This document shows positions 1 through 24,000 of a stretch of 64,000 nucleotides of DNA, piece after piece. The position numbers are program-made. The first letter of the stretch is position 1; each line of letters begins with the position of its first letter. Origin of the DNA: Pecten maximus (Eukaryota); contig NC_047020.1 in the NCBI RefSeq assembly GCF_902652985.1, forward strand, positions 27,156,001 to 27,220,000, given 5' to 3'.

Positions 1-3000
1 TGACAGTAATCGTTGTTGTTGTTTAGCTGACATATTTTGGTCGCGGTCACCTGTTCGCTGTTCCCTATTGTGTAACTCGCACAAAAACGTCCCGATGATA
101 CATCCAATCCCCACAACGCCATACACATCAGAATCAAATTTATTTCTGTATCTTTAATGCAGAATTTATGGCTCAGAATGGTACAATAGATTTATTACGT
201 GTGGCTGAGCGGGCAATGTTAACGCCACATTAGGTTTGTAGACAGATATTTGTGCTGTGTTATGGACAACCTGTGTCTGTGAGAGATGTAATCCCTAATC
301 AATATATTTTCAGAATGAGTCCAAAGAGAATATCGGGCGGACAGACGAAGATGAGGGGTTCGTAGAGACACCAGGTGGTACTTTGTCACATGACAGTGGT
401 CGTGGTGACAGTGTCCGTACACGTCACGACAGTTCTATGAGCCAACAGGAACTGATGATGAGTCAAGGTCAGCCTCAAATTCAATGTCAAAAAAAAAAAA
501 ATACCCATTCTCATAAATCAAAGAAAAATTGGTCTTTAACTTCATAACATATTTTGTACAATGCTACTGATTAGAACTGTAAAGTGTTAAATACATTATA
601 ATTAGTCCAATGTTGAATTTAGATACAATTTTGTTGATCTTTCAGATTCCAGACTGTTTTACTCATTGCCACGGTACCCAACAGGAAGTGGGGATACAGT
701 AAGTGACACACGATTCTCTACAGCCACATCAGAAGGTGTTTCTATACCAGAGAGCTGGCAAAATCGACCAGTGCCATCTCGACCAGTTTACAACAGGAAC
801 ATCAGTCTGGATGAACAAATGTTACGAGATAGACAGAAAGGTCAAACATTGTCAAGTTTTCGTGAAGATGCAAGGTTTTCTTCAACAGACTCGGCCATTG
901 TGCCTGTGAGTAAGAACTATAAACAGAGTAATCCAATAGGATTAGGATTATCGTACGATAGTCATACATTACACAGACATTTACCGGGCCAGTATCCTCG
1001 ATCTTCAAACAGCGCTTCTACAAAACTGGCTCAAAAGCGAACACTTTCCCCAATTAGTGCGACCCCTGAGCCAAGTGAGGGTGGTTTCTCTAACTCGTCA
1101 TCTTCTTACGCACCCCACCCTCGCTCTCCCTCCCATCAGCCATATTCTGGAGTTCATTTCTTCAAGTCTGGTTCCCAGTCCAGCAGTCAGTCACAAACTG
1201 GAACCTCAATGAACAGTTTACGACAGGACTCAGTACAGCTAGAGTTTGATATAGAGAATCGACTCAACAGAGAGGACTGTATAGTGTAATAGTTGTCAGT
1301 GTCCCAAGTTGGTCGAGGGGCTGTGGACAGATACATGACCTTTAGAGGTCATGGAAGGATATGGACCAGTTGCTGATCTCATGTTTAAATGATATCCAAA
1401 AGTGCCAAATATTAGAATATAGATTTAAGTGTAATTGTGTCTGAATGAAGTGAGATTGTTGAAAGGAGATATATTGTCTGTTAAGAAACCCAGATAGTTT
1501 CTAGGGGAGATAATGCTGAGTGTGGGTGTGTTCTATATATGGTATGTATATGATTGTTGAGGTTTAGATACTATATATAGCTGCTAGTTACTGCCAAGTC
1601 TGTTTGTTGCCTATATATATATATATATATATATTGTGTTTTTGATACTATCAAAGTTTACTTGATGTAGAAAATATTGATTCCATTATCAAAGAATAAC
1701 TTGTATCATTTTAATGGAAAATTTATATGAATAATTTATTTCTTGCGATGTTGAATTCATAAATGAAACTGTGTCATATTCATAAAAAGGACTGAATTTT
1801 GTAGAACTGTTTTTTGCTGTGTTATAAGCAGAGTATTTTATTATGCATGTATTTAACATCACGGTAGAGAGGTACATGCTCGGAAACAGATATACTGTGT
1901 TGTAGTGAAATAAAATATCACGGACAACAGTGTATACATTTGCTGAAACACACTTTCTCATGTTTAAGAAATCTTACAAACAAGTCACGAAGCAAACAAA
2001 CTTATGTAAACTAAAGATTTATTGGCTAGTAGGAAGAGATACTAAAGGAAACAGCTGATAATGTGTTTTATTATATAATATTTACTAGGGTAGCATTTGT
2101 AGTTCATGAGAGGTAAAACATACAAAATGATGAAATCTTGTGTGGAAATCAGTTCTGGTATACAATACAGTTAATGAAATCTTGTGTGGAAATCAGTTCT
2201 GTATACAATACAGTTAATGAAATCTCGTCTGGAAATCAGTTCTGGTATACAATACAGTTAATGAAATCTCATGTGGAAATCAGTTCTGGTATACAATACA
2301 GTTAATGAAATCTTGTGTGGAATTCAGTTCTGGTATACAATACAGCTAATGAAATCTCGTGTGGAAATCAGTTCTGGTATACAATACAGCTAATGAAATT
2401 TGTGTGGAATTCAGTTTTGGTATACAATACAGCTAATGAAATCTTGTGTGGAAATCAGTTCTGGTATACAATACAGCTAATGAAATCTCGTGTTGAAATC
2501 AGTTCTGATATACAATACAGTTAATGAAATCTTGTCTGGAAATCAGTTCTGGTATACAATACAGTTAATGAAATCTTGTGTGGAAATCAGTTCTGGTATA
2601 CAATACAGTTAATGAAATCTTGTGTGGAAATCAGTTCTGGTATACAATACAGCTAATGAAATCTCATGTGGAAATCAGTTCTGGTATACAATACAGTTAA
2701 TGAAATCTCGTGTGGAAATCAGTTCTGGTATACAATACAGTTAATGAAATCTTGTGTGGAAATCAGTTCTGGTATACAATACAGTTAATGAAATCTTGTG
2801 TGGAAATCAATTCTGTATACAATACAGTTAATGAAATCTTGTGTGGAAATCAGTTCTGGTATACAATACAGTTAATGAAATCTTGTGTGGAAATCAGTTC
2901 TTGTATACAATACAGTTAATGAAATCTCGTCTGGAAATCAGTTCTGGTATACAATACAGTTAATGAAATCTTGTCTGGAAATCAGTTCTGTATACGATAC

Positions 3001-21000: not shown

Positions 21001-24000
21001 GTCCTGGTTCTCCAGCACATGGAAGTGGAACATTGGACGTATAAACATGGGCGTGTTGTCATTGATATCGCTAAGTATGACCTCAACTACTGTTGAGGAG
21101 TTGAGCGGAGGGGTTCCTTGGTCCGTGGCTGTTACATGGAACCTGATGACTGGCCGTAACTCGCGATCTAGCGACACATCCGCCGATATTGTACCCATGG
21201 TAGGGTCTATGGAAAAGAAGGACAGACCGTCGGGTTCGAGAGAGTAGGACACACGTCCGTTGTTACCACTGTCTTTGTCCGTAGCAATCACTTCTTGAAC
21301 ATACGCGCCTGGGTCATTAGATTCCTGCATGGTCACCTGGTACTTTGGTTTGGTGAACTCCGGAGGATTGTCATTAATGTCCTGGACACGAATGAAGAAG
21401 CTGGTTGTGTTCTGTCGCTGAGGAACACCCTGGTCCTGACAATTTACAGTCACATTATGAAATTTTTCTGTCTCGTAATCCAGCTTGTTTTGAATGACAA
21501 TCTTGTACATATCAGTGTAGATCTCTTCCAATCGAAAACTATTGCCCATGACTTGACACCTGACTTTCCCATTAGCCTCACTGTCACGATCGGATACGGC
21601 CACATTAGCCACGTACTGACCAACATCAGCGGCCTCCGAGATGTCTGTACCAACTGGTGAGAGGTTGATGTTGATTTGTGGTGCATTGTCGTTGAGGTCC
21701 TGTATGTCGACTATGACAACAGCTGATGCCATTAATGGTGGCTGTCCTTGGTCCGATACAACGACAATGAACTGGTACTGAGTGTCCACCTCATAATCGA
21801 GGGGTGCAATCACAGAAATTTCCCCAGATGTAGAATTGATGGTGAACTTCTGCTGTACTTTTTGTGACACACGTGAGCTGAACGCATATGTAAGCTTGGC
21901 ATTGTTTCCAGCGTCGAAATCAGATGCAGAGAGAATTAAGATAGTCGAACCAACAGCCTTATTCTCCGGGATTGTGGTGCTGTAGTTGGCGCGCGAGAAA
22001 GCTGGACGATTATCATTTTCGTCTGTAATAGTGACATTGATTTTAACACTTCCTGTACGTACGGGAAACCCATGATCACTTGCTATCACTTTTAATTCAT
22101 AAAAGTCTCGTGTTTCTCGATCCAATTTAAACCGAACTTTTAATCCCAGATCTGAACCTCCTGCCAAATTTGGAGTTTGAATAAGACTGAACATTTCGTT
22201 AGATGGCTGAAGTTCGTAAGATTGTATGGAGTTATTCTGGCCTGTATCACGGTCAATGGCCCCAGAGGTCAATATGACATGACCCACATTGACGCCCTCG
22301 GAGACGGTCAAGGCCACTTCAGAGGCAGGGAATACTGGTGAGTTATCATTGACATCATCAACTCTGACCTCCACAGGGATGATCTGGTGAAGGTCGAGCT
22401 GGTTGGTACCCACGTATTGTTTGTACACTGCCACGTTAAATTTAGAACACATGCCACTTCATCAGGACAGAGAGTTTCTCTGTCCAATACTACTTTGGTC
22501 AACAAAGAGCTTGATGTCTCGTTAATTTGAAAATTTGAAGCATCCTCGTTACCTTGTGTAAGAATCTGAAATCTCATTCGGCTAAACTCTTGTTCCGATA
22601 CATTTCCATATAAAAGACTATCACGTGCCACATTTCCGACAAACGTTTCCTTGGATTGTTCTTCCCGTAGTTTGTACTTGAGTATGGACTCCTGGGCGTA
22701 CGTCATTTGAGAGTACAGATCCAGAGTTAGGAGAAGAAACAGTTGTCGTATTGGCGCTCCCATGTTTATATAAAATCCGACGAAATTCATAAACAGCACT
22801 TCGAAAAGTTTACAAACACCACAAATACACAGTATTCCAGGAAAAAGGGTTATATAGTCCGATCTTGTTCAAAAATGTCTACATCTTCTATTTATATGTT
22901 CCTCTTCACAATGTGTTCCACATTCCAGAACCCTCCTGTAAGTAAAGAACATTGGGCGATTAGTAATAGCAAACAAGGTGAGAAATGTCGAGATTATTGA
23001 CATTATATATTAGCAAGTAAAATATGTCATGTTCATAAAACGAAATCCTCAGAACCATTAGGACCTATCAGCTACAGTTCCAATATTGACACAGGGAGAG
23101 TCTCACCTCACCACCAGTCAGCATGCCTTTCATGCACATTCTAACACTGCAAATGACAATACATTGTACTACAAAAAACTCACAGGTCCACACGCTTCAT
23201 TGAACACACTGTCACTCATGTCACACCTGATTGGTCACACTGTTCAGCACCCAACCAATCACAGTCCCTGACTGACCAGTGGGCAGTGTGCCCTATGGAC
23301 ACAAGTCAATATTGACCTGATAATTAGCAGGTGATTGACACACCTTGGTATATGGCTACTCTTCAAGTGACCACCAAATATTGGCCAAAGTTCCTAATAG
23401 CTTATCTAAACAGATCACTAGGGCGACAAACTCACTTCTCACAAAACTGGGAAAAACCTACAATAAACATTTGTGTATTTCTGCTAAATATAATCCACTC
23501 TTGTATTTTATAAGAAAATACAGACTTTGTAAATGTTCAGACTTTATTTTAAAATGTTCTGAAATAAATAACAATAAAAAAATCACTATCAATTACCAGC
23601 ACTGATTACAAAACAATACATCAATTGATGGATTTAAACTTTCAACATGTAATGGTAGGGGACTGGTGATACCAAAGCCAGCTCGTGACATAACATCCTG
23701 CTGTAGTGTGAAAGTTGATACTACAGAAACCTGAGTAGTTAACAATACATGTCTTTATACAAATAACGCCCATTTTAATTCCTTGTCAAATGTCACCGCT
23801 GTAGCAAAAAGTTCATCAGATAGAGAAATCTTTTCCGTAACACAATTATTTGCAAATAAAAAATGTTTAAGTATTTATTACAATATCATAATTGAGGTGG
23901 GGTGGGTTGTGCTTGGGGGATAAAGAACTAAAACATTATATCCTTTCCTTATATTGTAAAAAAAATATCTTTAGTTAAGAAATATAAAATTGATTCACTT

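What the first reader, a model, noticed from the sequence alone, without database searches (positions are those of the whole stretch)
314..22763. Two tail-to-tail protocadherin-like paralogs, each with its own cytoplasmic exons
Seen: an exon missed by the ORF track (314-467, +) encodes HDSGRGDS, matching SDSGRGGS in exon 3 of the minus-strand gene. Both exons are ~150 nt, phase 0/1, and both precede a phase-1 terminal exon ending D-x-I-V. The stops are 9.4 kb apart and convergent. Known: vertebrate clustered Pcdh alpha/gamma splice variable exons to shared constant exons, and protocadherins expanded independently in molluscs. Inference: this is part of a molluscan Pcdh cluster of self-contained, highly diverged genes with an orientation switch. 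The + gene's ectodomain is outside the window, so its identity rests on motif and exon architecture.
Basis: partly seen in the sequence, partly recalled or inferred. Interest (0 to 1): 0.7.

Follow-up and report, generated by a model that had tools for sequence, protein, structure and literature searches.

The report
Two convergent scallop protocadherin genes
The region holds the tail of one seven-repeat protocadherin (cell-adhesion) gene and all of a second, distantly related one facing it, both ordinary scallop genes with relatives already in public annotation.

Summary
The + exon 314-467 and the - exon 14990-14849 both start in phase 0 and end in phase 1. They carry HDSGRGDS and SDSGRGGS, and each precedes a terminal exon ending DCIV or DVIV. 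The stops lie 9,420 nt apart.

The + exons are 100% identical to an NCBI Pecten maximus model, "LOW QUALITY PROTEIN: protocadherin alpha-10-like", which has Cadherin_2 plus six Cadherin domains. The - gene has four coding exons plus a conserved alternative terminal micro-exon. Its orthologues across bivalves and gastropods are named protocadherin-11 X-linked-like, -1-like and similar.

The two ectodomains share 36-39% identity. Pairwise BLASTP of the tail exons is not significant. Profile comparison finds collinear homology (E 6e-5; 0 of 100 shuffles reach the score).

Each gene has its own cytoplasmic exons, so nothing resembles vertebrate variable/constant splicing. No third cadherin gene appears in the other 41 kb, so a cluster is not shown.

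Verdict: real, ordinary and already annotated.

The parts
314..467 (+). Penultimate coding exon of the + protocadherin gene. 154 nt, starts in phase 0, ends in phase 1, 51 codons plus 1 base. Carries HDSGRGDS.
   Evidence: AG at 312-313 and GT at 468-469. Translation. Identical stretch in NCBI model P0007, and 94% identical in the Mizuhopecten model P0008.
646..1289 (+). Terminal coding exon of the + gene. Starts in phase 1, ends DCIV, stop TAA at 1287-1289. Contains YNRNISL.
   Evidence: 100% identity and coverage to P0007. 81-84% identity to three other scallop models.
1290..10709 (.). 9,420-nt spacer between the convergent stops, holding the 3' UTRs and the intergenic DNA. About a third is minisatellite arrays: 2130-3045, 4065-4823, 6940-8183 and 9704-10058.
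   Evidence: Tandem Repeats Finder. No cadherin tblastn hit here.
10710..11203 (-). Terminal coding exon of the long form of the - gene. Starts in phase 1, 163 full codons after the split codon, ends FFNDVIV, stop TGA at 10712-10710. Contains YHRNISFSDDS and TTTSGSYTINPDEL.
   Evidence: 96% identical to P0011 and 45-58% identical to Pinctada, Saccostrea and Haliotis proteins.
12874..12899 (-). Alternative terminal micro-exon. With the phase-1 base of exon 3 it reads VVLYQCYV-stop and gives a short C-terminus.
   Evidence: Found by pattern scan. Polypyrimidine tract plus AG acceptor read. The same ending is seen in short models of Tegillarca (SVVLYQCYV), Ruditapes and Sinanodonta. No transcript of this species was seen.
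14849..14990 (-). Exon 3 of the - gene. 142 nt, starts in phase 0, ends in phase 1. Carries SDSGRGGSEED.
   Evidence: The motif stretch is near-invariant in 31 related proteins fetched here.
16835..17026 (-). Exon 2 of the - gene. 192 nt, 64 codons, starts and ends in phase 0.
   Evidence: tblastn of P0011 and P0012. AG/GT boundaries read.
20026..22763 (-). Exon 1 of the - gene. ATG at 22763, then signal peptide, EC1-EC7, the transmembrane segment and about 90 cytoplasmic residues with KKEVSF and TTFSTFKN. The reading frame is broken by one missing base at 22443, in the run ...CTAAATTTAAC....
   Evidence: Pfam gives Cadherin_2 at 4e-13 and six Cadherin stretches at 2e-100. tblastn HSPs of P0011 residues 1-107 and 108-914 share base 22443 in different frames.

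Best explanation
The window comes from a scallop genome, most likely Pecten maximus. It holds the last two coding exons of one protocadherin gene on the + strand and the whole of a second one on the - strand, arranged tail to tail.

Both genes encode single-pass membrane proteins with seven extracellular cadherin repeats. By family knowledge such proteins mediate calcium-dependent homophilic cell-cell recognition (inferred, not tested here).

Each gene is self-contained. A large first exon encodes the signal peptide, all EC repeats, the membrane span and the start of the tail. Small private exons encode the rest of the tail.

The tails are disordered-looking strings of short conserved motifs. 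Both genes share, in the same order and with the same intron phases:
- an acidic, serine-rich D-S-G-x-x-S motif;
- a Y-x-R-N-I-S-[FL] motif;
- a C-terminal D-x-[IV]-V.

The two genes therefore descend from one ancestral gene that already had this exon structure.

The - gene is the conserved member, with orthologues across bivalves and gastropods. It additionally keeps a KKEVSF motif (the RVxF type that docks protein phosphatase 1), a T-F-S-T-F motif (the type that binds the WAVE complex), and an alternative terminal micro-exon giving a short ...YQCYV end. The functional readings of these motifs are inferences from recalled consensus patterns.

The + gene is the fast-evolving member.

Nothing indicates shared constant exons or a multi-gene array.
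For: Identity of the + gene:
- P0007 (NCBI, Pecten maximus) matches the + terminal exon at 100% identity and coverage.
- P0007 also contains the 314-467 exon.
- Its domain content is Cadherin_2 plus 6 Cadherin.

- gene:
- Cadherin_2 plus 6 Cadherin domains and six D-x-N-D-N linkers.
- Exon junctions match P0011 and P0012. These 1189- and 1196-aa proteins sit on 5.6-kb and 5.0-kb records, too short to hold the 12-kb locus, so they are taken as spliced transcripts.

Orthology:
- The - gene sits in a clade of 4 scallop rows (support 100), inside 7 pteriomorph rows (100), inside 14 bivalve rows (95), next to two gastropod clades.
- The orthologues carry names such as protocadherin-11 X-linked-like, -1-like, -9-like and -7-like.

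Paralogy of the two genes:
- 36-39% identity over 613-647 ectodomain residues.
- Tail profile comparison E 6.2e-5; 0 of 100 shuffles reach the score.

Motif counts:
- D-S-G-x(2,3)-S in 20 of 20 - relatives and 5 of 5 + relatives.
- D-x-[IV]-V end in 20 of 20 and 5 of 5.
- Y-x-R-[NA]-I-S-[FL] in 16 of 20 and 4 of 5.
- KKEVSF-type motif in 20 of 20 and 0 of 5.

Alternative short end.

Private exons and convergent orientation make shared constant exons impossible; this is read directly from the coordinates.
Against: - Pairwise BLASTP between the two genes' tail exons is not significant. Homology of the tails rests on profiles and on exon phases.
- Exon 1 of the - gene has a 1-base frame break, so in this sequence as given the gene does not encode the full protein.
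- The public + model is flagged LOW QUALITY. It has two stretches out of register with three orthologues.
- No expression data for this species were seen.
- No Pfam family covers either tail, so motif functions are untested.
- Homophilic adhesion is assumed from the family, not tested.
Confidence: 0.85

Rival explanations
1. One reading: the pair is one edge of a larger molluscan protocadherin cluster, an array of three or more self-contained genes, with an orientation switch at this point.
For: - Two protocadherin genes are adjacent.
- Passages of PMC6339937 say that octopus protocadherins lie in head-to-tail arrays and that Lottia may have clustered ones.
- In Patella caerulea two related proteins carry consecutive locus tags and are sisters in the tree.
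- Orthologues of both window genes in Mizuhopecten are listed on a contig of the same length, 1,173,270 bp.
Against: - No cadherin-like tblastn hit at E <= 1 in 22.9-64 kb with 5 queries.
- None of the nine ORFs tested in 24.2-56.3 kb, nor one at 5570-5878, has a Pfam hit.
- The two genes are only 36-39% identical.
- The best tree places them in different clades.
- The left side of the window was not visible.
Confidence: 0.2
2. The - gene is a recently inactivated pseudogene. On this reading the missing base at 22443 is real, and no full-length protein is made from this allele.
For: - The frame break is in the sequence.
- No Pecten maximus protein for this gene appeared among the listed hits of two searches. 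The listed rows are 90%-cluster representatives, so it could be hidden inside P0011's cluster.
Against: - It is the only defect. The start codon, all eight splice sites, both stops and every other codon are intact.
- The translation is 95-97% identical to P0011.
- The break lies in an A3/T3 run, typical of long-read consensus errors.
- By passages of PMC7191990, the published P. maximus assembly was built from PacBio Sequel reads with wtdbg2, Arrow and freebayes polishing, at 1.71% heterozygosity.
- The neighbouring gene's public model also shows out-of-register stretches.
Confidence: 0.15
3. The resemblance of the two small exons is chance or convergence between low-complexity acidic, serine-rich tails, not common descent.
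For: BLASTP finds nothing between the two exons. The shared motif is only 7-8 residues long.
Against: - The profile alignment is collinear across two motifs. It scores 41.4 against a maximum of 21.5 in 100 shuffles.
- The intron phases are the same, and the intron positions agree to within about one residue on both sides of the exon.
- The ectodomains are clearly homologous.
Confidence: 0.03

Closest known systems
Annotated scallop genes: NCBI 'protocadherin alpha-10-like' of Pecten maximus (P0007) for the + gene; 'protocadherin-11 X-linked-like isoform X2' of Mizuhopecten yessoensis (P0045) for the - gene
   Same: The + exons match P0007 at 100%. Exon 1 of the - gene is 91% identical to P0045 and 95% identical to P0011.
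   Different: No P. maximus protein for the - gene was listed. The alpha/beta/gamma labels in these automatic names do not reflect clustered-type gene structure.
Vertebrate non-clustered delta-protocadherins, especially delta1 (Pcdh1, 7, 9, 11) and delta0 (Pcdh20)
   Same: - Seven EC repeats. Review passages say delta0 and delta1 have 7.
- A large first exon encodes the ectodomain, the TM and the first part of the tail, and conserved tail motifs lie on later small exons. This is as described for mouse Pcdh10 (passages of PMC9040349).
- Alternative cytoplasmic isoforms (versus 45, 46).
- An RVxF-type motif, comparable to RRVTF of delta1 (passage).
- Orthologues are auto-named after Pcdh1, 7, 9, 11X and 20.
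   Different: - No hit to any Pfam cytoplasmic family.
- Whether D-S-G-R-G-x-S corresponds to the vertebrate CM1 or CM2 was not tested. I only recall a similar D-S-G core.
- By PDB sequence search the ectodomain is no closer to Pcdh1 (about 1e-48) than to Pcdh-alpha7, Pcdh10 or gamma-B4 (1e-82 to 1e-84). Chain lengths differ.
Vertebrate clustered protocadherins (alpha, beta, gamma)
   Same: A single large exon per ectodomain, a Cadherin_2-type EC1, and strong ectodomain similarity to solved alpha and gamma structures.
   Different: - Seven rather than six EC repeats.
- Private rather than shared cytoplasmic exons.
- Convergent orientation.
- No match to the clustered-type tail families.
Cephalopod expanded protocadherin arrays
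   Same: Molluscan, multi-exon protocadherin genes (passages of PMC6339937).
   Different: Those arrays are tens of head-to-tail copies. Here there are two deeply diverged genes facing each other, and one of them has orthologues across bivalves and gastropods.

Membership tests
Protocadherin (cadherin superfamily, non-classical) | N-terminal Cadherin_2-type EC1 followed by tandem cadherin repeats, 6-7 in all | tested here: met
   - gene: PF08266 at 4.3e-13 plus 6 stretches of PF00028 at 2.4e-100. + gene, via P0007: PF08266 at 2.3e-13 plus 6 stretches.
Protocadherin (cadherin superfamily, non-classical) | Single membrane span and no catenin-binding cytoplasmic domain | tested here: met
   One hydrophobic run, NIIIVVIIVVVTVVLSIAIVVTIIII, followed by RR. 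No classical-cadherin tail family among the Pfam hits.
Protocadherin (cadherin superfamily, non-classical) | Whole ectodomain on one large exon | tested here: met
   - gene: 22763..20026 is collinear with residues 1-914 of P0011, apart from the 1-base frame break. + gene: not visible in the window.
Clustered protocadherins (alpha/gamma type organisation) | Variable ectodomain exons spliced to shared constant cytoplasmic exons, all in one orientation | tested here: not met
   Each gene ends in its own exons and its own stop. The genes converge.
Clustered protocadherins (alpha/gamma type organisation) | Six EC repeats and clustered-type tail families | tested here: not met
   Seven EC repeats. 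No tail family hit even at E <= 10 on the tail pieces.
Delta1-type non-clustered protocadherins | Seven EC repeats | tested here: met
   The criterion comes from passages of PMC7339444.
Delta1-type non-clustered protocadherins | Conserved tail motifs CM1 and CM2 | not tested
   I had no named vertebrate reference tails to compare with. Pfam gives no tail hit. The papers I searched do not print the motif letters. PMC6339937 reports no CM1-3 in octopus.
Delta1-type non-clustered protocadherins | CM3 with an RRVTF-type PP1-alpha docking site | tested here: inconclusive
   KKEVSF or a close variant is present in 20 of 20 - relatives and 0 of 5 + relatives. It fits the loose RVxF pattern I recall. 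Binding is untested.
Delta1-type non-clustered protocadherins | Alternative cytoplasmic isoforms from a multi-exon tail | tested here: met
   An alternative terminal micro-exon lies at 12899..12874 with a good acceptor. Short forms with the same ending exist in other molluscs. Met at sequence level only.
Multi-gene protocadherin array (cephalopod-like cluster) | Three or more protocadherin genes in close tandem | tested here: inconclusive
   Only two genes in 64 kb, and none in 22.9-64 kb. The sequence left of the window was not available.

The most novel reading that the evidence does not exclude
The 47-51-residue phase-0/phase-1 exon with the invariant D-S-G-x-x-S core may be an ancient cytoplasmic module of seven-repeat protocadherins. 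On this reading it is homologous to one of the conserved motifs of vertebrate delta-protocadherins and acts as a phosphorylation-dependent degradation or docking signal; the core fits the beta-TrCP degron pattern as I recall it. The convergent gene pair would then be an old conserved neighbourhood in molluscs rather than a chance adjacency.
Probability: 0.2. Interest if true: 0.4.

Novelty: already known. Interest (0 to 1): 0.15.

Why it matters
It matters little beyond annotation.

- Protocadherins in bivalves are known, and the + gene is already in the public gene set.
- The - gene has named orthologues in many molluscs.

The analysis does yield four useful points:
- a corrected exon map of the - gene in this sequence;
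- a flagged 1-base frame break that may have kept the gene out of the species' protein set;
- a conserved alternative short C-terminus;
- a catalogue of tail motifs shared by two deeply diverged paralogues.

The motif catalogue gives a concrete handle for asking whether molluscan and vertebrate non-clustered protocadherins signal through the same partners.

Tried and rejected
- **Pairwise BLASTP of the paired exons:** not significant. Only profile comparison detects the tail homology.
- **Pfam on all tail pieces at E <= 10:** only chance-level hits.
- **ESM Atlas on the tail of P0011:** best score 0.80, which the tool itself rates as chance level. Dropped.
- **Literature search for a recalled short motif:** the only paper found was unrelated, with the motif in a different protein.
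- **Letters of CM1/CM2:** four protocadherin papers, read as passages only, do not print them.
This stays unchecked.
- **Dating the duplication:**
  - The quick LG+G4 tree of 37 rows puts the + clade (4 scallops plus a Mytilus 'protocadherin delta 1') outside the bivalve-plus-gastropod group of the - gene (support 96).
  - The tool warned about long branches.
  - An AU test does not reject a bivalve-only origin (p 0.132). The age is therefore unresolved.
  - The 37 rows were my choice out of 148 proteins fetched. I took named molluscan entries, two unnamed close relatives and four outgroups. The remaining 111 were left out.
- **Ruled out:** a tiny intron cannot explain the 1-base frame change.
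- **Not used:** The search of protein representatives, structure prediction, fold search, complex prediction and the genome-contig scan. The last holds only bacteria and archaea.
- **Closed:** Metagenome contigs, viral contigs and paper supplements. Supplementary motif tables of PMC6339937 might bear on the CM question.
- **Left out as instructed:** the joined (spliced) model of either window gene was not built or searched. The window exons were handled one by one.

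
Full report
**What is in the sequence**

The window has no N and about 32-44% G+C.

On the + strand, an AG at 312-313 opens a 154-nt exon, 314-467. It closes at a GT at 468-469. It reads NESKEN...HDSGRGDS...MMSQ, starting in phase 0 and ending in phase 1. After a 178-nt intron the terminal exon 646-1289 continues in phase 1 and ends REDCIV-TAA.

On the - strand the gene has four coding exons:
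- Exon 1 runs from the ATG at 22763 to 20026.
- Exon 2 is 17026..16835 (192 nt, starts and ends in phase 0).
- Exon 3 is 14990..14849 (142 nt, starts in phase 0 and ends in phase 1, carries SDSGRGGS).
- Exon 4 is 11203..10710 (starts in phase 1, ends FFNDVIV-TGA).

All boundaries are AG/GT. The stops face each other across 9,420 nt.

**Identity of the + gene**

- The + terminal exon matches at 100% identity and coverage an NCBI protein of Pecten maximus. It is 'LOW QUALITY PROTEIN: protocadherin alpha-10-like', 1137 aa, on a 47.4-Mb contig.
- That model also contains the 51 residues of exon 314-467, directly joined to the terminal exon.
- Models from Mizuhopecten, Ylistrum and Argopecten do the same, at 82-84% identity.
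- Pfam finds Cadherin_2 plus six Cadherin stretches in it.
- I take the window to be P. maximus on this basis. It is not human.

**Identity of the - gene**

- The two pieces of exon 1 give Cadherin_2 (4e-13) and six Cadherin stretches (2e-100). Six D-x-N-D-N linkers are visible, so there are seven EC repeats. A membrane span and about 90 tail residues follow.
- The terminal exon finds 34 longer proteins. These are mostly 1150-1200 aa cadherin-domain proteins from bivalves and gastropods.
- Exon 1 finds 5905 proteins at E <= 1e-20 among the 8000 candidates scored. The best are P0011 (95%), a Mizuhopecten 'protocadherin-11 X-linked-like' (91%) and P0012 (87%).
- tblastn of P0011 and P0012 against the window recovers all four exons, and this is how exon 2 was located.
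- These two proteins sit on records of 5.6 and 5.0 kb, too short to hold a 12-kb locus. I take them as spliced transcripts that support the three junctions in close relatives.

Exon 1 is not one open frame. Residues 1-107 of P0011 align to 22763..22443. Residues 108-914 align to 22443..20026 in another frame, and the two alignments share base 22443.

The DNA reads ...GTTCTAAATTTAACG.... One more A or T in that run would give the orthologue's reading. Everything else in the gene is intact.

Three observations bear on whether this is a consensus error or a real mutation:
- The neighbouring gene's public model is flagged low quality.
- That model shows two stretches out of register with three orthologues.
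- By passages I read in PMC7191990, the published assembly of this species was built from PacBio Sequel reads with polishing, at 1.71% heterozygosity.

I judge a consensus error more likely than a real pseudogene, at roughly 85:15. Only reads can decide.

**An extra exon**

A pattern scan found VVLYQCYV-stop at 12899..12874. It lies behind a polypyrimidine tract and an AG, in the right phase to follow exon 3.

Short models in other molluscs end the same way:
- Tegillarca: ...SVVLYQCYV
- Ruditapes: ...AILYQCYV
- Sinanodonta: ...IYYQYYV
- Gigantopelta: ...KQWYV
- Physella: ...SSYV

These are seen. The - gene therefore probably makes a short and a long cytoplasmic form.

**Are the two genes related, and how?**

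- Their ectodomains share 36-39% identity over 613-647 residues.
- Their tails are not alignable pairwise.
- A profile of 5 + relatives against 20 - relatives aligns 83 collinear columns. These run from the D-S-G-R-G motif across the phase-1 intron to Y-x-R-N-I-S-[FL]. The score is 41.4 and E is 6.2e-5.
- None of 100 column shuffles exceeds 21.5.
- The D-S-G core and the D-x-[IV]-V end are found in all 25 sequences.
- With matching intron phases, common descent of the exon structure is the simplest reading.

**Phylogeny**

In a quick tree of 37 chosen rows, the - gene nests in a bivalve clade of 14 rows that roughly follows bivalve relationships. Two gastropod clades lie beside it. The + clade (four scallops plus a Mytilus protein named 'protocadherin delta 1') falls outside that whole group, with support 96.

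The tool warned of long branches. An AU test does not reject a bivalve-only duplication (p 0.132). The pair is old and diverged, but its exact age is open.

**Cluster or not**

- Five protocadherin queries give no tblastn hit at E <= 1 anywhere in 22.9-64 kb.
- Ten other ORFs, nine in 24.2-56.3 kb and one at 5570-5878, have no Pfam hit.
- There are no tRNAs and no Rfam matches.
- The region is full of minisatellites.
- Private exons and convergent orientation exclude vertebrate-style variable/constant splicing.
- A larger array to the left cannot be excluded.
- In Mizuhopecten both orthologues are listed on a contig of the same length, 1,173,270 bp, which hints that the linkage is kept within scallops.

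**Comparison with known families**

The layout has seven ECs, a big first exon, small private tail exons carrying conserved motifs, and alternative tails. It matches what review passages describe for non-clustered delta-protocadherins.

The - family also keeps KKEVSF, comparable to the RRVTF PP1-alpha site quoted for delta1 members. It keeps a T-F-S-T-F motif of the WAVE-binding type; that consensus is recalled.

Membership in delta1 proper is not shown:
- No Pfam tail family matches.
- CM1 and CM2 could not be compared.
- The PDB sequence search does not favour Pcdh1 over alpha, gamma or delta2 ectodomains.

I therefore file both genes as protocadherins of non-clustered architecture.

**Limits of what was done**

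Each exon was handled alone, and full-length comparisons used database proteins.
- Papers were seen only as search listings and as passages returned by find. Works cited inside those passages (Albertin 2015, Vanhalst 2005, Chen 2014, Hulpiau and van Roy) were not read.
- Supplements were closed.

**Verdict**

The feature is real and correctly observed, and it is correctly called a pair of protocadherin paralogues. It is ordinary and already in public annotation, and the cluster idea is unsupported by what the window shows.

Noticed in passing
window 22430-22455 (- strand): One-base frame break in EC1 of the - gene, inside an A3/T3 run. It is the only defect in an otherwise intact gene.
   Followed up: partly
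window 12874-12899 (- strand): Conserved alternative terminal micro-exon giving a short ...VVLYQCYV C-terminus. The same ending is seen in short models from other bivalves and gastropods.
   Followed up: partly
window 38491-41025: Very regular 48-nt minisatellite with 52.8 copies at 94% matches. It is open in several frames, which produces spurious 670-700-aa ORFs on both strands.
   Followed up: partly
window 49634-51515: 47-nt minisatellite with 40 copies at 95% matches.
   Followed up: no
window 2130-3045, 4065-4823, 6940-8183, 9704-10058, 11815-12332, 19049-19384: Six further arrays with periods of 34-54 nt fill about a third of the spacer between the two genes and parts of two introns of the - gene. 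The units at 19049-19384 and 56681-56938 look related.
   Followed up: no
window 26839-27515 and 62766-63503: A proline-codon-rich 48-nt array, a 42-nt array and a 24-nt array give long repetitive ORFs. No sign that they are genes.
   Followed up: no
P0007 residues 385-415 and 566-584 (outside the window): The public model of the + gene has two stretches out of register with three scallop orthologues, suggesting paired indels in the underlying assembly.
   Followed up: partly
P0099 and P0114 (Patella caerulea, consecutive locus tags): Two neighbouring protocadherin genes in a limpet are sisters in the tree (support 87). This points to a local tandem duplication within the - gene's family in that lineage.
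   Followed up: no
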